64,000 nt of DNA, from NCBI RefSeq assembly GCF_017348835.2, contig NZ_CP071375.1. The stretch is one strand, 5' to 3'. Made by a program: the position numbers and the translations under genes. Numbering within the stretch: the stretch's first letter is position 1; each line of letters begins with the position of its first letter. Under the pieces are notes generated by a model. It saw nothing but the letters and a program-made list of their open reading frames with translations. It was not told the origin of the DNA and searched no databases. The DNA comes from Escherichia coli. Its GTDB lineage: Bacteria; Pseudomonadota; Gammaproteobacteria; Enterobacterales; Enterobacteriaceae. Positions 31,779 through 38,205 of the stretch are shown piece after piece.

Positions 31779-33749
31779 TCAGAACGTATACTCGACACCT
31801 GCCCAGAAATTGCGACCTTCTTCAATAAACCCTTCACTGTAGGCATATTGGGTATCAAACAGGTTATTGACCGACGCATTGACGCTGAAGCCATGACCTA
31901 AGGTGTAATCGGCTCGAATGTGGGTCACCGCAAAACCGGCGGCTTTTTGTGAACCGTCACTGTTGCTGTAGCTGGAGGAACGCGCCTCTTCCGACAGCGT
32001 TACGCTTAACGGCTCCCACGGTTTGAGAGTCATCCATGCGGTCATTGTCTGCGTTGGCAGATCGGTTATCTTGCCGATGTCTTTGCGTTTGGCGTCAGCG
32101 TGGATCAGGGCGTAGCTCAATCCTACATCCAGTATATTGCTGATTTTCCCCTTAATACCGGCATCCAGACCGCTGTAATCCACCGTGCCGCTGTTCTGAT
32201 TTTGAATGGTATCGGCATCAATATTGTGCGAGAGGATGGCATCACTCACCCGGTTATAGTAAACGCTGACCTCAAATCCCCAGTCGCGCGTGAAGGCACC
32301 ATTCCAGGTTAAATCCACCCCGCGAGCGCGTTCCGGCTTGAGCTGCGGGTTAACAATCGCTATCTGGTTATACGCAGGTTTGGATGTGGTATAGCGTTCT
32401 TTCAGCGTCGGAAAGCGTGTGCGGTCATAGTACGAAAGCGCCAGAGTGTCTTCATTGGCAAAGTGGTATTTCCCCATCACCTGCCAGTTAAAAGCTGACT
32501 GATTGTTGTCGTCATAATGGGTGATGCTGCCATCTTTCTCATGTTTTTTCGCTTCTACGCTATCGCGCCAGTCATAGCTGATTCCAGCCACGACATCGAC
32601 ATTATCGGCAGCAGCCCATTGATATTCACTGGCGAGCGACCAGGTACGATCTTCATAGCGATCGTAAGCGGCGTGCGGCGCACCTTTTTCCCGGTGTACG
32701 TCATCTTTCCAGTTAACGGCAAACGACAGCAGATCGTTTTCACGCACATCGGCTGCCAGTTGTAATCCGGCACCGTCGCTGTAATCGGAATAATGGCTGT
32801 AGCTGCCTTTTTTATTTTTCAAATCAGCCAGCGAGTTGTACATCATCAGCGTATTTTCAAAGGTGTCGCGATACAGCCGACTTTTCAGGGTAAAACGATC
32901 GTTTAGTTGGGTCGTTCCCTGATAATAAAAACTTTCTTTGTCATACTCTGGCCACTGCCAGTAGCGTGATTTTTGACCACTATTTCCGCTGTATGGCGGG
33001 TTATCTTTTTCACCATCCTGCTTAATGTAAGTCAGTGTGTATTCATCGTTTTCACGTGGTGTAAATCCGAGCTTCACAATGCCGCGTTTATCATCAGCCG
33101 ATGAATTAATCATCTTGCCGTGGTTGCCTGCAATATCATTATTTACACCATGCGGCAGGCCGAGAAAATCCTGCTTTAGCTGGCTACCGCTGACTTGCAA
33201 ATACCCCAGATCGCTGCTGGCGGCAAATGAAGCATGCATATCGTAGGCATTGTCCTGGCTACGGCTCCATCCCTGGCGATATCCCAGACTTGCTTCCAGA
33301 GGTTTTGTTGGCTTCTGGGTGGTGATATTAATGGCTCCGCCCATCTGATTAGGCCCCTGAAGCAGCGACGAATACCCTTTGGAAACTTCGACTGCCCCCA
33401 GATTGTTGGTCAGAATCCGCGCCAGATCGAGGTTGCCGTCATAGGGAACATAAATGGGCACACCGTCGAAATAGACCGGCACCTGCCGACTATCAAAGCC
33501 ACGAACTTTTACCTGTTCTTCGTTGCGGCTGCCTGACTTTTGCAGCACCACGCCGGGGACGACACTTAATGCCTGAGCGACATTCTGTTTATCCAGGGCC
33601 TTCATGGTGGGTTGATCGAGAACGGTGGTCGTCGTCGATGATACCGGACTGGACCATACGGTCAGCGAGTCGCTCTCCTGAGCCGCTACGGCCTGCTGGG
33701 TAAAGGCAAGTGATAATGCTGTGCAGAGATAATGTTTTTTGAGTCTCAT
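31779..33749 (-). CDS. TonB-dependent outer-membrane receptor (accessory operon, gene 6)
   Basis: ORF 31779..33770; likely start MRLKKHYLCTALSLAFTQQAVAA (signal peptide); TonB-box-like DSLTVWS; plug domain; C-terminal ...AGVEYTF. Confidence 0.85.
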   Translation of the reverse strand: MRLKKHYLCTALSLAFTQQAVAAQESDSLTVWSSPVSSTTTTVLDQPTMKALDKQNVAQALSVVPGVVLQKSGSRNEEQVKVRGFDSRQVPVYFDGVPIYVPYDGNLDLARILTNNLGAVEVSKGYSSLLQGPNQMGGAINITTQKPTKPLEASLGYRQGWSRSQDNAYDMHASFAASSDLGYLQVSGSQLKQDFLGLPHGVNNDIAGNHGKMINSSADDKRGIVKLGFTPRENDEYTLTYIKQDGEKDNPPYSGNSGQKSRYWQWPEYDKESFYYQGTTQLNDRFTLKSRLYRDTFENTLMMYNSLADLKNKKGSYSHYSDYSDGAGLQLAADVRENDLLSFAVNWKDDVHREKGAPHAAYDRYEDRTWSLASEYQWAAADNVDVVAGISYDWRDSVEAKKHEKDGSITHYDDNNQSAFNWQVMGKYHFANEDTLALSYYDRTRFPTLKERYTTSKPAYNQIAIVNPQLKPERARGVDLTWNGAFTRDWGFEVSVYYNRVSDAILSHNIDADTIQNQNSGTVDYSGLDAGIKGKISNILDVGLSYALIHADAKRKDIGKITDLPTQTMTAWMTLKPWEPLSVTLSEEARSSSYSNSDGSQKAAGFAVTHIRADYTLGHGFSVNASVNNLFDTQYAYSEGFIEEGRNFWAGVEYTF

Positions 33750-33774
33750 AGAATAAATTCCGTTTAACAAAGAA

Positions 33775-36206: not shown

Positions 36207-37183
36207 TGGCGACCTCCGCGTAACAACAAAAGCAGGAAAAACGGTGCGCCAACAAAAGCGGTCAGAATGCCAAGTGGGATTTCTGTTGTTCCAATGCTGC
36301 GTGCCAGCGTATCGGTAAGCAGGAGCAGAATCGCGCCAGTACACATTGCCATGGGCAACAGCTGCTGATGGTTATGACCGGTCAACAAGCGGGCAATGTG
36401 CGGAACGACCAGGCCGACCCAACCAATTATGCCCGCTATTGCTACCGAACTGGCGGTGATTAGTGTGGCGCAGACAATCAATCCAAAGCGCAGACGCGTC
36501 ACGTTCAGTCCCAGCGAACGGGCTTCGTCGTCGGAAAGCGTGAGTAAATTCATGCGCCAGCGGAGAAAAAACAGGGGCAAGGAGCCTATGAGAATGATCG
36601 GTGCAGCATAACAGAGATCGCGTAAGGTCACGGTAGACAGTCCCCCCAGCAACCAGAAGGTAATTGACGGTAACTGGGTGTAAGGATCGGCCAGCGTTTT
36701 AATTAGCGATATCCCCGCTCCGCACAACGTTCCTAACGCAATGCCTACCAGCACCAGGGTTAAGATCGGATCGTGGCGGGTCACCCGACGCGTAATCAAC
36801 CAGACGCCCGCGACCACCATCAGCCCGCCGCAAAATGCGTACAGCTGGATGTAAACAATGGATAATCCCCACAGAATTGCCGTGCAGGCACCAAGTCCGG
36901 CACCGGCGGAGACGCCTAAAATATCCGGTGAAACTAAGGGATTACGCAATATTCCCTGATAGGTGGTTCCGGCTCCTGCCAGCGCCGCGCCCAGTAACAG
37001 CGCAGCAAGAATACGCGGCACGCGGATTTGCCAGAAGACAATTTGTTCCTGCACAGGAACATTTTCTTGACGAAGAATTAGCGCCAGCAGTTGCTGCATA
37101 TCGAGATGATAAGCCCCACTTACGGCGGCAAAAGTGATACTGATAGCTGCCAGCAGCAAAATACATCCGTTTGCGATTCTCAT
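36203..37183 (-). CDS. FecCD/BtuC-family ABC permease (gene 2)
   Basis: 326-aa polytopic membrane protein; start overlaps the binding-protein stop (TAATG). Confidence 0.8.
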   Translation of the reverse strand: MRIANGCILLLAAISITFAAVSGAYHLDMQQLLALILRQENVPVQEQIVFWQIRVPRILAALLLGAALAGAGTTYQGILRNPLVSPDILGVSAGAGLGACTAILWGLSIVYIQLYAFCGGLMVVAGVWLITRRVTRHDPILTLVLVGIALGTLCGAGISLIKTLADPYTQLPSITFWLLGGLSTVTLRDLCYAAPIILIGSLPLFFLRWRMNLLTLSDDEARSLGLNVTRLRFGLIVCATLITASSVAIAGIIGWVGLVVPHIARLLTGHNHQQLLPMAMCTGAILLLLTDTLARSIGTTEIPLGILTAFVGAPFFLLLLLRGGRQ

Positions 37184-38205
37184 TAGCTCGCCACCAATTT
37201 TTGATAGTCGGCGTCACTGAGTGAACAATGCCAGAACAGTTGGGCGTAATGCTGCATGTCACTTTTAAACTGGCGATTGATGGCGGGATCCAGCCAGGCG
37301 TGAAGTCTGCGTAATCCCAGAAGACGGTTGATTCCCGGCGGGGCATCCAGCCAGCCAAAGGGCAAGCCACTTAAAAATAAGATGCGTTGTTCCGCAACGG
37401 CTTTCACGCCCTGCCAGAGAGGATCACGACGAATAAAATCTGCAGTAACGGCCTCCTGAACCAGAATAATATCCGGCTGCCAGCGCAGGAGATTTTCCAT
37501 GGAAACCTGTGTCAGGCCGTGGCGATCGGCTATTTGCGCGACGTTGTGCAAACCTAATAATTCCGCCGCCTCGGTATGCAACGAACCCTGTAAGCCCGTT
37601 TCCAGCCCTTGAGGACCGCGCGCAGCATAAAAGCGGAGGTTAGCGGCGGGTGAGGTGGCGAATGCCTGAGCTTCACCAACGAAGCGGCTGGCGAGATTGG
37701 CTTGTTCTGCGGCGCGATGCTCTTCGCCTAACGTTTTGCCAAGCGTTGTTAACTGTTCTGCTGATTGCTCCAGTTTCCCGTTAAGCAATAACCAGGGTAT
37801 TTGTGTCTGTTCGCTAACCTGCCGTGCCTGGGAGATCCAGGTTTCATCCGTATTGCCGCAATCAACGACCAAATCGGGATGTAACGCCATAAGCCCTTCC
37901 AGCGAGAGTGTGCTGGCGCGCCCGGCGAGTCGTCCCAGCCTGGGTAACTGGCGAATGTGCTCTGACAATGGAATTAATGCCTGACGGGCAAAATCAAAAG
38001 AGGAAAAACCGACCATTTTTTCTGGCGCGACAGCCAGCAATAGCAAATCGGCGGGCGCACCTGCGCTGACGATGCGTGTAATGTTTTGGGCTTCGGGAAG
38101 CGTCAGTGAGGCCCAGAAATTGACTGATTGTGCAAAGGACGGCAGATGATGCAGGAACAATGTTGACGCAAGAATCTGTGTAAACCTCCGTCTGGTTAGT
38201 GACAT
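37183..38205 (-). CDS. periplasmic substrate-binding protein of a metal-chelate-type ABC importer (gene 1)
   Basis: 340-aa ORF; N-terminus MSLTRRRFTQILASTLFLHHLPSFAQS resembles a twin-arginine-type signal peptide. Confidence 0.7.
   Translation of the reverse strand: MSLTRRRFTQILASTLFLHHLPSFAQSVNFWASLTLPEAQNITRIVSAGAPADLLLLAVAPEKMVGFSSFDFARQALIPLSEHIRQLPRLGRLAGRASTLSLEGLMALHPDLVVDCGNTDETWISQARQVSEQTQIPWLLLNGKLEQSAEQLTTLGKTLGEEHRAAEQANLASRFVGEAQAFATSPAANLRFYAARGPQGLETGLQGSLHTEAAELLGLHNVAQIADRHGLTQVSMENLLRWQPDIILVQEAVTADFIRRDPLWQGVKAVAEQRILFLSGLPFGWLDAPPGINRLLGLRRLHAWLDPAINRQFKSDMQHYAQLFWHCSLSDADYQKLVAS

What the first reader, a model, noticed from the sequence alone, without database searches (positions are those of the whole stretch)
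31779..38205. Accessory six-gene TonB-dependent uptake operon with an embedded methyltransferase and ModD-like enzyme, inserted between ymgE and treA
Six co-directional minus-strand genes encode a binding protein with a twin-arginine-like leader, a FecCD-type permease, an ABC ATPase, a class I SAM-methyltransferase, a ModD/QPRTase-fold protein and a TonB-dependent receptor. Every junction is tight or overlapping (TAATG, GTGA, ATGA, with 5-25 bp gaps elsewhere), which argues for a single translationally coupled operon. In K-12 I recall only the small ycgY gene at this position, so this is lineage-specific cargo. The transport parts look like a siderophore-, heme- or cobalamin-type importer. Two cytoplasmic modifying enzymes sitting inside an import operon is unusual, and suggests the imported compound is methylated or phosphoribosylated after uptake, or is a vitamin or cofactor precursor rather than a classical siderophore. 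I cannot name the substrate from sequence.
Basis: partly seen in the sequence, partly recalled or inferred. Interest (0 to 1): 0.78.

Follow-up and report, generated by a model that had tools for sequence, protein, structure and literature searches.

The report
Molybdenum-controlled TonB-dependent uptake operon
A six-gene E. coli operon long labelled "putative iron uptake" carries a conserved binding site for the molybdate repressor ModE, and its inner-membrane transporter most resembles a Haemophilus molybdate importer, so it most likely scavenges molybdenum (or tungsten) across both membranes.

Summary
Six intact, co-directional, tightly coupled minus-strand genes (31779-38205) encode a Tat-signal binding protein, a FecCD-type permease, an ABC ATPase, a class I SAM methyltransferase, ModD and a TonB-dependent receptor.

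It is not new as a locus. It is the uncharacterised "prrA-modD-yc73-fepC" cluster (O-island 55 / S-loop 83 of O157:H7), which the literature calls putative iron uptake.

It is not an insertion either. It sits between treA and ymgE in E. albertii, Citrobacter and other Enterobacteriaceae, and K-12 still keeps the last 24 nt of the receptor gene, so K-12 lost it.

What appears to be new is the metal:
- A palindrome matching the ModE operator (CGnTATATA-N6-TATATAnCG) lies 24 nt upstream of the first gene and is conserved in more than 15 genera. It recurs before the receptor gene wherever that gene has its own spacer.
- I found no Fur box and no riboswitch.
- The closest solved relative of the permease is the H. 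influenzae molybdate importer MolB.
- Elsewhere ModD sits in genuine modABC operons.

Best reading (about 0.7): a ModE-repressed, TonB-dependent molybdenum/tungsten acquisition system. The chemical form of the substrate and the roles of ModD and the methyltransferase are unresolved.

The parts
38230..38255 (-). Predicted ModE operator: CGATATATATATGTAAATATATAGCG. This is the palindrome CGnTATATA...TATATAnCG, here with an extra TA, giving 26 nt instead of 24.
   Evidence: This is the only match in the 64-kb window to CGNTATATANNNNNNTATATANCG at 3 mismatches or fewer (0.18 expected). The same box sits 32-69 nt upstream of the SBP start in about 50 orthologous loci from more than 15 genera. Other E. 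coli strains carry the canonical 24-mer. The authentic modA operator CGTTATATTGTCGCCTACATAACG serves as a positive control.
38273..38278 (-). -35-like hexamer TTGACA, 17 nt upstream of the operator. The operator would therefore cover the -10/+1 region. This promoter assignment is inferred.
   Evidence: Sequence. A TTGAC(A/T) hexamer at a comparable distance is seen in E. coli, Proteus, Providencia, Morganella and Pantoea upstream regions. The simple promoter scan did not call this site.
38214..38217 (-). Shine-Dalgarno AGGA, 8 nt before the SBP start codon.
   Evidence: Sequence.
37183..38205 (-). Periplasmic substrate-binding protein (class III / Peripla_BP_2) with a twin-arginine leader.
   Evidence: The profile search against PDB gives 4pag at 152 bits (ligand unknown); MolA (HI1472) at 54 bits is the best functionally characterised hit. 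The AlphaFold model has pLDDT 85.9. In Foldseek, 4pag has TM 0.78-0.82 and MolA ranks 5th. The RRxF motif is conserved.
36203..37183 (-). FecCD/BtuC-type (type II ABC importer) permease, MolB-like.
   Evidence: The best PDB hit is HI1471 MolB at 222 bits (E 1e-64), against FhuB 173, BhuU 166, HmuU 163 and BtuC 142.
35448..36206 (-). ABC ATPase, MolC-like.
   Evidence: HI1470 MolC scores 124 bits, the best among type II importer ATPases (FhuC 118). The start at 36206 follows RefSeq and gives the GTGA overlap.
34626..35438 (-). Class I SAM-dependent methyltransferase ('yc73'), substrate unknown.
   Evidence: Pfam Methyltransf_25/31/12/11. The model has pLDDT 88.7. Structural neighbours are only generic small-molecule methyltransferases with TM of 0.6 or less. 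The gene always directly precedes modD, including in Edwardsiella, where the transporter genes are absent.
33775..34629 (-). ModD (QPRTase-fold protein of the TIGR01334 family).
   Evidence: TIGR01334 scores 503 bits (cut-off 179); NadC TIGR00078 scores 136 bits, below its cut-off of 198. The alignment to M. tuberculosis QAPRTase 1qpn is. In other taxa ModD sits in modABC/Mop/nif contexts.
31779..33749 (-). TonB-dependent outer-membrane receptor ('prrA'): signal peptide, TonB-box-like DSLTVWS, and a C-terminal ...EYTF.
   Evidence: All specific receptor models score below their cut-offs, and PDB hits cover the plug domain only. Orthologues carry Plug plus barrel Pfam domains. In Morganellaceae and Pectobacterium this gene has its own ModE box.
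31742..31771 (.). 10-bp-stem hairpin (GCGGATAGCG...CGCTATCCGC) between the convergent ymgE and receptor genes, probably a shared terminator.
   Evidence: Sequence. It is conserved in K-12.
31803..38549 (.). Segment absent from K-12-type genomes (6,747 bp), replaced there by 622 bp carrying ycgY.
   Evidence: blastn of the K-12-type locus L083 against the window shows homology ending at 31802 and resuming at 38550.

Best explanation
The six genes form a ModE-controlled molybdenum (possibly also tungsten) acquisition operon.

Proposed sequence of events:
1. Repression. When cytoplasmic molybdate is sufficient, ModE-molybdate binds the palindromic operator that lies between a -35-like hexamer and the ribosome-binding site, and blocks transcription. 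This step is inferred from the sequence.
2. Derepression. Under molybdenum shortage one polycistronic, translationally coupled mRNA is made.
3. Outer membrane. The TonB-dependent receptor takes up the molybdenum species.
4. Periplasm and inner membrane. A Tat-exported class III binding protein hands the substrate to a MolB-like permease dimer powered by a MolC-like ATPase (a type II ABC importer).
5. Cytoplasm. ModD, a QPRTase-fold protein that keeps most PRPP/acid-binding residues but has a changed pocket, and the co-translated SAM methyltransferase process either the imported species or the incoming metal.

What is shown here: gene content, operon structure, the conserved operator, the family relationships and the ModD-molybdenum linkage.

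What is inferred: repression by ModE, molybdenum or tungsten as the cargo, whether the cargo is the free oxyanion or an organic complex, and the chemistry of ModD and the methyltransferase.
For: 1. Operator.
- The published E. coli ModE consensus is atCGnTATATA-N6-TATATAnCGat (PMC545781).
- The window has its only match at 38230-38255 (0.18 expected).
- Across 82 loci (1.45 Mb) there are 98 matches at 3 mismatches or fewer, against 4-10 in shuffles. About 50 lie 32-69 nt upstream of the SBP gene. About 33 lie 11-54 nt upstream of the receptor gene in genera that have a ModD-receptor spacer. Most of the remainder precede MT-modD, modD or modA.
- Positive controls: the same motif lies 20 nt upstream of E. 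coli modA and upstream of modA in Yersinia alsatica and Cedecea.

2. No competing signals. There is no Rfam hit at E of 1 or less. No Fur box lies within 3 mismatches. The best Fur-like match has 6 mismatches, which about 21% of shuffles reach, and none is conserved in orthologues.

3. ABC core.
- The closest solved relative of the permease is MolB at 222 bits, against 173 or less for the iron, heme and B12 permeases.
- MolC is the best type II ATPase hit.
- MolA is the best functionally characterised SBP hit.
- MolBC-A transports molybdate, and molB is repressed by molybdate (PMC4031551).
- The H. influenzae mol locus also contains modD (PMC3928620).

4. ModD context outside this cluster: modA-modB-modC-modD (Yersinia alsatica), modABC plus Mop (an Alcaligenaceae genome), modA-modB-modD-modC followed by a MoeA-like gene (a Desulfurobacteriaceae genome), and Mop plus nifH. 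A Mop/TOBE gene precedes the six-gene cluster in Pectobacterium.

5. Conservation. The six-gene order is kept in about 55 loci from Escherichia to Proteus, Providencia, Morganella, Pectobacterium, Erwinia and Pantoea.
Against: - No experiment supports any of this. ModE binding, molybdate-responsive expression and transport are all untested.
- The SBP is only about 21% identical to MolA, and its nearest structure (4pag) has no known ligand.
- Molybdate is generally thought to cross the outer membrane through porins (PMC8264917). The need for a TonB-dependent receptor is therefore unexplained unless the cargo is a complex or is extremely scarce.
- MolBC-A in Haemophilus is a low-affinity system, which fits poorly with a scavenging role.
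- The methyltransferase gives no substrate clue.
- The window's own operator has a +2-bp spacing variant, which may bind ModE poorly.
- The -10 element of the proposed promoter is weak.
- The literature labels the cluster putative iron uptake.
Confidence: 0.7

Rival explanations
1. This is an iron or siderophore uptake system, as the literature and RefSeq product names suggest. The receptor would import a ferric chelate, the ABC system would carry it inward, and the enzymes would modify the ligand.
For: Published descriptions read "proposed to be involved in iron uptake" and "possibly mediating iron uptake". RefSeq names the SBP "iron ABC transporter substrate-binding protein". There are weak family hits to FecB, FepB and TonB-siderophore receptor models, and plug-domain hits to FecA, ShuA and FyuA.
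Against: All iron-family hits fall far below the curated cut-offs: TonB-siderophore 126 against 223.5, FecB 33 against 320. No Fur box beyond chance appears in the window or in orthologues. The only conserved regulatory element is a ModE box. The permease is clearly closer to MolB than to FhuB, HmuU or BhuU.
Confidence: 0.1
2. This is a corrinoid, heme or other tetrapyrrole/vitamin-precursor importer, with methylation and phosphoribosylation after uptake.
For: The permease scores 237 bits against an archaeal BtuC model. The ATPase hits corrinoid, heme and F420-0 ABC models. The methyltransferase has weak hits to CpaM, CbiT and BchM. The QPRTase fold of ModD hints at nicotinate-type chemistry.
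Against: All of these hits are below cut-off: BtuC 237 against 461, BtuB 79 against 600, BtuF 23 against 234, CpaM 43 against 180. There is no cobalamin or other riboswitch. ModD fails the NadC cut-off, and Lys172/Asp173 of the QAPRTase site are replaced by Phe/Ala. ModD's genomic partners elsewhere are mod, Mop and nif genes, not cob, hem or nad genes.
Confidence: 0.05
3. The operon is ModE-regulated, but its cargo is not molybdenum. It would import some other nutrient or cofactor that is needed when molybdenum is scarce, or that is used by molybdoenzyme-related metabolism. ModD and the methyltransferase would act on that compound.
For: ModE in E. coli also controls genes that are not molybdate transporters (my own knowledge: moa, dmsA, napF). 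The SBP's nearest structure has no known ligand. A receptor plus two enzymes suggests an organic substrate.
Against: The operator geometry is the same as at modA: close to the start codon and downstream of a -35-like hexamer. The ABC core is MolBC-like. ModD and Mop linkage to molybdate transporters holds across phyla.
Confidence: 0.1

Closest known systems
prrA-modD-yc73-fepC cluster = O-island 55 / S-loop 83 of E. coli O157:H7 (ECs1693-ECs1699, Z1961-Z1966); GR9 of APEC strain BEN2908
   Same: It is the same locus, with the same genes in the same order between ymgE (ECs1692) and treA (ECs1701/2). An O157-like genome, F3398, is 98.8% identical over the 7.2 kb.
   Different: Nothing differs structurally. 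The published label is "putative iron uptake", and I found no functional study in the held literature. The ModE operator and the MolBC relationship do not appear in any of the papers I could search.
Haemophilus influenzae MolBC-A (HI1470-HI1472), a type II ABC molybdate/tungstate importer, with the adjacent modD (HI1473)
   Same: MolB is the best solved relative of the permease and MolC the best among type II importer ATPases. Both systems use a class III SBP, and MolA is the best characterised hit. Both loci include modD. molB is repressed by molybdate, which matches the predicted ModE control here.
   Different: The SBP is only about 21% identical to MolA and is closer to an uncharacterised Sulfurospirillum protein (4pag). 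The E. coli cluster adds a TonB-dependent receptor and a methyltransferase. As far as the papers read here describe it, the Haemophilus locus has neither, and it has extra modA/cysU-type genes. MolBC-A is described as low-affinity.
ModABC, the canonical high-affinity molybdate ABC transporter under ModE repression
   Same: The operator type is the same, and it sits at the same place just upstream of the first gene. In several taxa modD is part of the modABC operon.
   Different: The transporter architecture is unrelated: ModABC has a type I importer and a class II SBP. ModABC has no outer-membrane component and no enzymes.
Quinolinate phosphoribosyltransferase (NadC)
   Same: ModD has the same fold and keeps R139, K140, H161, R162, E201 and D222 (M. 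tuberculosis numbering, from my own knowledge). R105 becomes Lys (invariant columns).
   Different: ModD scores below the NadC cut-off (136 against 198 bits). K172/D173 are replaced by the invariant Phe163/Ala164. Its genomic context is molybdenum transport, not NAD synthesis.
TonB-dependent metal uptake systems such as FecA-FecBCDE and BtuB-BtuFCD
   Same: The overall logic matches: a TonB-dependent receptor, a class III SBP and a type II ABC importer in one regulon controlled by a metal-sensing repressor.
   Different: The regulator signal is ModE rather than Fur or a riboswitch. Two cytoplasmic enzymes are embedded in the operon. The receptor belongs to none of the curated receptor families.

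Membership tests
prrA-modD-yc73-fepC / OI#55 / S-loop#83 cluster | Gene series of TonB-dependent receptor, 'molybdenum transport protein' ModD, hypothetical protein (the methyltransferase), ABC ATPase, permease and a third transport protein. 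| tested here: met
   Table in PMC1890555 compared with the ORFs and annotations.
prrA-modD-yc73-fepC / OI#55 / S-loop#83 cluster | Chromosomal position between ycgR-ymgE and treA-dhaM. | tested here: met
   One search lists ECs1691 ycgR, ECs1692 ymgE, ECs1701/2 treA and ECs1703 ycgC.
ModE regulon | Operator matching atCGnTATATA-N6-TATATAnCGat close to the promoter. | tested here: met
   Window 38230-38255 has 2 mismatches in either register because of an extra TA. Other E. coli strains have 0-1 mismatch. The consensus comes from PMC545781.
ModE regulon | The site is conserved at the orthologous position across taxa, and the same motif occurs at bona fide mod genes. | tested here: met
   98 hits against 4-10 in shuffles, nearly all upstream of the SBP, receptor, MT-modD, modD or modA genes. 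The E. coli modA operator was recovered with the same pattern.
ModE regulon | ModE-molybdate binds the site, and molybdate changes transcription. | not testable with these tools
   This needs EMSA or footprinting, and reporter assays with and without molybdate and with and without modE.
MolBC-A type II molybdate/tungstate ABC importer | Permease and ATPase orthologous or closest to MolB and MolC. | tested here: met
   MolB scores 222 bits against 173 or less for other solved type II permeases. MolC scores 124 bits against FhuC at 118, a small margin.
MolBC-A type II molybdate/tungstate ABC importer | Class III binding protein that binds molybdate or tungstate. | tested here: inconclusive
   The fold is class III. 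MolA is the best characterised hit (54 bits by profile; Foldseek rank 5, 21% identity), but 4pag, with unknown ligand, is much closer. Ligand binding cannot be tested here.
MolBC-A type II molybdate/tungstate ABC importer | Genomic linkage to modD. | tested here: met
   HI1473 modD lies next to molABC (PMC3928620). modD is inside the operon here.
ModD family (TIGR01334) | Score above the curated cut-off over the full length. | tested here: met
   503.3 bits against a cut-off of 178.85, residues 2-278 of 284.
Quinolinate phosphoribosyltransferase NadC (TIGR00078) | Score above the cut-off and a complete quinolinate/PRPP site. | tested here: not met
   135.9 bits against a cut-off of 198.4. K172/D173 (M. 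tuberculosis numbering) are replaced by Phe/Ala, which are invariant in ModD.
Fur-regulated siderophore uptake system | Fur box at the promoter, and receptor or SBP membership in a siderophore family. | tested here: not met
   No Fur box within 3 mismatches. The best match has 6 mismatches, reached by about 21% of shuffles, and is not conserved. TonB-siderophore scores 125.9 against 223.5, FecB 32.8 against 320 and FepB 23.3 against 205.
Cobalamin uptake (BtuB / BtuFCD) | Cobalamin riboswitch and BtuB/BtuF/BtuC equivalog scores. | tested here: not met
   No Rfam match at E of 1 or less in 31000-41000. BtuB scores 79 against 599.7, BtuF 22.6 against 234 and BtuC 237 against 461.
TonB-dependent transporter | Plug plus 22-strand barrel domains, an N-terminal TonB box and a C-terminal aromatic residue. 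| tested here: met
   TonB-receptor models match residues 45-663. Plug and TonB_dep_Rec_b-barrel Pfam domains are present on orthologues. DSLTVWS follows the signal peptide, and the protein ends ...EYTF. TonB dependence itself is not testable here.
Tat-exported periplasmic protein | Twin-arginine (S/T)RRxF(L) motif followed by a hydrophobic region. | tested here: met
   MSLTRRRFTQILAST... in the window. RRxF is conserved in 18 of 19 genera sampled; Morganella is the exception. Export route was not tested.

The most novel reading that the evidence does not exclude
The operon is the first TonB-dependent molybdenum (or tungsten) acquisition pathway. Under this reading it imports an organic molybdenum complex, a "molybdophore" or host- or microbiota-derived chelate (for example a picolinate/quinoline-carboxylate or catecholate type), across both membranes. 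ModD, using QPRTase-like chemistry on an N-heterocyclic acid, together with the methyltransferase, then dismantles or modifies the ligand to release the metal. This would give ModD its first biochemical function and add a molybdenum arm to nutritional-immunity biology in E. coli, Proteus, Providencia, Morganella, Citrobacter and plant-pathogenic Pectobacteriaceae.
Probability: 0.25. Interest if true: 0.85.

Novelty: new variant of a known kind. Interest (0 to 1): 0.6.

Why it matters
Molybdoenzymes (nitrate, DMSO, TMAO and formate enzymes) drive the anaerobic respiration that lets Enterobacteriaceae bloom in the inflamed gut and urinary tract. Molybdate is currently thought to reach the periplasm only through porins and the cytoplasm mainly through ModABC.

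A ModE-controlled receptor plus MolBC-like importer, present in about 40% of complete E. coli genomes and in many other Enterobacterales, would have four consequences:
1. It would show that these bacteria actively scavenge molybdenum or tungsten at the outer membrane.
2. It would correct a 25-year-old "iron uptake" label that is still used in virulence-gene inventories.
3. It would give a testable handle on the unknown function of ModD.
4. It would add a surface-exposed, condition-specific receptor in pathogens.

If the prediction fails, the locus stays an uncharacterised accessory transporter of modest interest.

Tried and rejected
- Rfam scan of 31000-41000 at E of 1 or less: nothing, so no B12, Moco or other riboswitch.
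- Fur-box searches gave nothing beyond chance.
- The sigma-70 and terminator scan was not above shuffle expectation and did not call the promoter proposed here.
- The methyltransferase gave only generic SAM-fold or small-molecule methyltransferase neighbours (TM of 0.6 or less) in Pfam, NCBIfam, the PDB sequence search and AlphaFold plus Foldseek. No substrate inference is possible.
- The receptor matched PDB sequences over the plug domain only.
- The Shewanella homologue of the methyltransferase is an isolated gene beside a transposase, which is uninformative.
- Literature:
  - One search was wasted because 'treA' matched 'treatment'.
  - 'ModD' often means a DNA methyltransferase.
  - In Methanococcus, 'modD' is described as a putative ATPase, apparently not this family.
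  - Ye & Xu 2001, Studholme & Pau 2003 and Tirado-Lee 2011 are not held.
  - I found no paper linking this cluster to molybdenum or to ModE. I could not check databases such as RegPrecise, so a prior in-silico prediction cannot be excluded.
- I considered that the TATAT-rich box is just AT-rich promoter DNA. I rejected this because the CG...CG-flanked palindrome is position-conserved across genera whose surrounding sequence is unalignable, and because it reappears before the receptor gene only where a spacer exists.
- I considered the cluster to be a horizontally inserted island. I rejected this on synteny and on the receptor-gene remnant in K-12. GC content is also unremarkable, 0.46-0.56.

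Full report
**1. What is there**

The window is E. coli chromosome: ldcA, emtA, ycgR, ymgE, the cluster, then treA and dhaM. Between ymgE and treA lie six intact minus-strand genes:

| Gene product | Coordinates | Length |
|---|---|---|
| Class III periplasmic binding protein (SBP) | 38205-37183 | 340 aa |
| FecCD-type permease | 37183-36203 | 326 aa |
| ABC ATPase | 36206-35448 | 252 aa |
| Class I SAM methyltransferase | 35438-34626 | 270 aa |
| ModD | 34629-33775 | 284 aa |
| TonB-dependent receptor | 33749-31779 | 656 aa |

A 10-bp-stem hairpin separates the receptor stop from the convergent ymgE gene.

Family assignments come from NCBIfam and Pfam. ModD is a clear member of TIGR01334 (503 bits, cut-off 179). 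Every other specific family hit (siderophore, heme, B12, copper receptors; FecB, FepB, BtuF, IsdE; BtuC, FhuB, FecCD) is below its curated cut-off.

The SBP leader MSLTRRRFTQ is a twin-arginine motif conserved in almost all genera. The receptor has a TonB-box-like DSLTVWS after its signal peptide and ends in ...EYTF.

**2. It is a known, named, but uncharacterised locus**

Full-text searches identify it as the "prrA-modD-yc73-fepC" cluster. It is GR9 of APEC strain BEN2908 ("possibly mediating iron uptake"; PMC12928451). It is also S-loop#83/O-island#55 of O157:H7, ECs1693-ECs1699 (Z1961-Z1966), flanked by ECs1692 ymgE and ECs1701/2 treA ("proposed to be involved in iron uptake"; PMC1890555). 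I found no functional study in the held library.

**3. It is ancestral, not an insertion**

The full 7.2-kb segment is present in 2139 of 5426 complete E. coli genomes. The flanks are present in 5330.

In a K-12-type genome, homology with the window stops at 31802 and resumes at 38550. There, 6,747 bp are replaced by 622 bp carrying ycgY. The K-12 side still encodes the last seven codons and stop (AGVEYTF*) of the receptor gene.

The cluster lies between treA and ymgE-ycgR in E. albertii, about ten Citrobacter species and an unnamed Enterobacteriaceae isolate. It is treA-adjacent in Raoultella, Enterobacter and Intestinirhabdus. GC content is ordinary. K-12-like lineages therefore lost it. Some carriers have decaying copies: an internal stop in the permease of PCN033 and in the methyltransferase of F3398.

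**4. The six genes travel together widely**

I searched one genome per species with a ModD alignment and ran tblastn with the six proteins. The order SBP, permease, ATPase, methyltransferase, ModD, receptor is kept in about 55 loci. These cover Escherichia, Citrobacter, Raoultella, Klebsiella indica, Enterobacter, Yokenella, Serratia, Symbiopectobacterium, Proteus, Providencia, Morganella, Pantoea, Erwinia, Pectobacterium and Affinibrenneria.

The methyltransferase-ModD pair, with its overlapping ATGA, persists without the transporter genes in Edwardsiella. It persists with only the receptor in Intestinirhabdus.

**5. The regulatory signal is ModE, not Fur or a riboswitch**

Sequence. Upstream of the SBP gene the minus strand reads ...TTGACA-N17-CGATATATATATGTAAATATATAGCG-N24-ATG. 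The published E. coli ModE consensus is atCGnTATATA-N6-TATATAnCGat (PMC545781).

Statistics. The window contains exactly one place matching CGNTATATANNNNNNTATATANCG at 3 mismatches or fewer, at 38230-38255 (0.18 expected). In the 82 fetched loci (1.45 Mb) there are 98 such matches, against 4-10 in shuffled sequence. They are not scattered:
- About 50 lie 32-69 nt upstream of the SBP start, in every genus. The surrounding sequence is otherwise unalignable between genera.
- About 33 lie 11-54 nt upstream of the receptor gene. This occurs in exactly those genera (Proteus, Providencia, Morganella, Pectobacterium and one Serratia) that have a 100-270-nt ModD-receptor spacer.
- Most of the rest precede MT-modD (Edwardsiella, Intestinirhabdus), modD (Cedecea) or modA (Yersinia alsatica).

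Positive control. The same pattern recovers the experimentally known modA operator of E. coli, CGTTATATTGTCGCCTACATAACG, 20 nt before modA. The cluster's box in other E. coli strains fits the consensus at least as well: CGATATATATGTAAATATATAGCG with 0 mismatches, and CGCTATATGTGTAAGTATATAGCG with 1 mismatch.

Geometry. The box ends 24 nt before the start codon. Any promoter must therefore overlap it or lie upstream of it, which is a repressor geometry like that at modA. This is an inference.

Negative results. There is no Rfam family hit at E of 1 or less. No Fur box lies within 3 mismatches. The best Fur-like match has 6 mismatches, about 21% of shuffles do as well, and nothing is conserved in orthologues.

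**6. The ABC core resembles the Haemophilus molybdate importer MolBC-A**

- Permease. Against all PDB sequences the best hit is HI1471 MolB (222 bits, E 1e-64). FhuB scores 173, BhuU 166, HmuU 163 and BtuC 142.
- ATPase. The best type II importer hit is HI1470 MolC (124 bits; FhuC 118).
- SBP. The nearest structure is an uncharacterised Sulfurospirillum protein, 4pag (152 bits by profile; TM 0.78-0.82). The best functionally characterised hit is MolA/HI1472 (54 bits by profile; Foldseek rank 5, 21% identity). MolA scores above the characterised heme, siderophore and B12 binding proteins in the profile search.
- What is known about MolBC-A. MolA binds molybdate and tungstate. MolBC-A imports molybdate in vivo, and molB is repressed by molybdate (PMC4031551; PMC7759655). 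The Haemophilus locus is HI1469 modA, HI1470-72 molCBA, HI1473-75 modD-salX-cysU, so it also includes modD (PMC3928620).

**7. ModD is a molybdenum-linked protein across phyla**

Outside the six-gene cluster, ModD is found in these contexts:
- modA-modB-modC-modD in Yersinia alsatica.
- Divergent from modABC in Cedecea.
- Next to modABC plus a Mop molbindin in an Alcaligenaceae genome.
- In modA-modB-modD-modC followed by a MoeA-like gene in a Desulfurobacteriaceae genome.
- Beside Mop and nifH in another locus.

In Pectobacterium a Mop/TOBE gene precedes the six-gene cluster. In Zymomonas, ModD rises with nitrogenase (PMC8600466).

I aligned ModD to M. tuberculosis QAPRTase and compared it with the ModD invariant columns. 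ModD keeps R139, K140, H161, R162, E201 and D222, and R105 becomes Lys. K172 and D173 are replaced by the invariant Phe163 and Ala164. The residue roles come from my own knowledge of the QAPRTase structure. ModD also misses the NadC cut-off. It therefore looks like an active-site-competent but re-targeted phosphoribosyltransferase-fold protein. Its reaction is unknown.

**8. The methyltransferase**

The model is confident (pLDDT 88.7), but its neighbours are only generic small-molecule methyltransferases with TM of 0.6 or less. No substrate can be named. Its invariable pairing with ModD, under a ModE box even without the transporter, argues that the two enzymes work together on a cytoplasmic step.

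**9. Mechanism proposed**

Under molybdenum sufficiency, ModE-molybdate represses the operon. Under shortage, the receptor (with TonB), the Tat-exported SBP and the MolBC-like importer bring in a molybdenum or tungsten species, and ModD and the methyltransferase process it.

- Shown: anatomy, conservation, operator, family relationships.
- Inferred: repression, the identity and chemical form of the cargo, and the enzyme chemistry.

The receptor is the puzzling part, because molybdate is thought to cross the outer membrane via porins (PMC8264917). Either the cargo is a complex, or the receptor concentrates a very scarce oxyanion. On the first possibility, metallophores that bind molybdenum are discussed in the literature, for example 8-hydroxyquinoline-2-carboxylate (PMC7356571, listed). 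I put about 0.7 on the molybdenum/tungsten reading overall. I put about 0.25 on the stronger [quoted passage not shown] version.

**10. Novelty**

The class of parts is known: a receptor, a type II ABC importer and ModE control. In the literature I could search, three things are not stated:
- this widely distributed "iron" cluster belongs to the ModE regulon;
- it is a MolBC-type system;
- it couples a TonB-dependent receptor and two enzymes to molybdenum uptake.

I therefore rate it a new variant of a known kind, of moderate-to-high interest. All functional claims are predictions, and I could not consult curated regulon databases.

Noticed in passing
window 38230-38255: The window strain's ModE box has an extra TA in the left arm, giving 26 nt: CGATATATATATGTAAATATATAGCG. 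Strain F3398 has the perfect 24-nt consensus, and four other strains have CGCTATATGTGTAAGTATATAGCG. This is a TA-repeat slippage allele that changes half-site spacing by 2 bp and might weaken repression.
   Followed up: partly
L083 3883-3903 (K-12-type genome), corresponding to window 31779-31802: K-12-type genomes keep the last 7 codons and the stop (AGVEYTF*) of the TonB-dependent receptor gene beside the ymgE terminator hairpin. This is a scar showing that the ycgY segment replaced the cluster.
   Followed up: yes
L001 7804-8784; L085 3227-4039; L016: Some strains carry decaying copies. The permease has an internal stop in PCN033. The methyltransferase has an internal stop, and treA is frameshifted, in the O157-like F3398, matching the split ECs1695/1696 and ECs1701/1702 of Sakai. 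Citrobacter koseri gives fragmented hits.
   Followed up: partly
L002 11077, L029-L041, L046-L069 (about 10900-11100), L003 10896: In Proteus, Providencia, Morganella and Pectobacterium a second ModE-type box lies 11-54 nt upstream of the receptor gene. There the receptor is probably transcribed separately but co-regulated.
   Followed up: yes
L003 5643-6071; L048 3367-3792; L049 5618-5959: In Pectobacterium a 142-aa di-TOBE (Mop/molbindin-like) gene sits immediately upstream of the six-gene cluster.
   Followed up: partly
L004 (JAIJJM010000374.1): A 3.2-kb contig binned as a 'Collinsella sp.' MAG is 97-99% identical at the protein level to the E. coli cluster. This is almost certainly a binning contaminant.
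   Followed up: no
L053 6357-6400 and other Morganella loci: The Morganella SBP lacks the twin-arginine motif found in all other genera sampled (its leader is MTMRLNRLCSGF...). This suggests a switch of export route.
   Followed up: no
summary (E. coli genomes): Twelve matching places lie on plasmids, and some genomes have up to three places. Extra or plasmid-borne copies of part of the segment exist. The literature also speaks of a copy on a CFT073 pathogenicity island.
   Followed up: no
L084 8001-8816 (Shewanella avicenniae): A 62%-identical homologue of the methyltransferase occurs alone next to a transposase in Shewanella, away from any ModD or transporter gene. A Nitro_FeMo-Co family gene lies about 2.5 kb away.
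   Followed up: no
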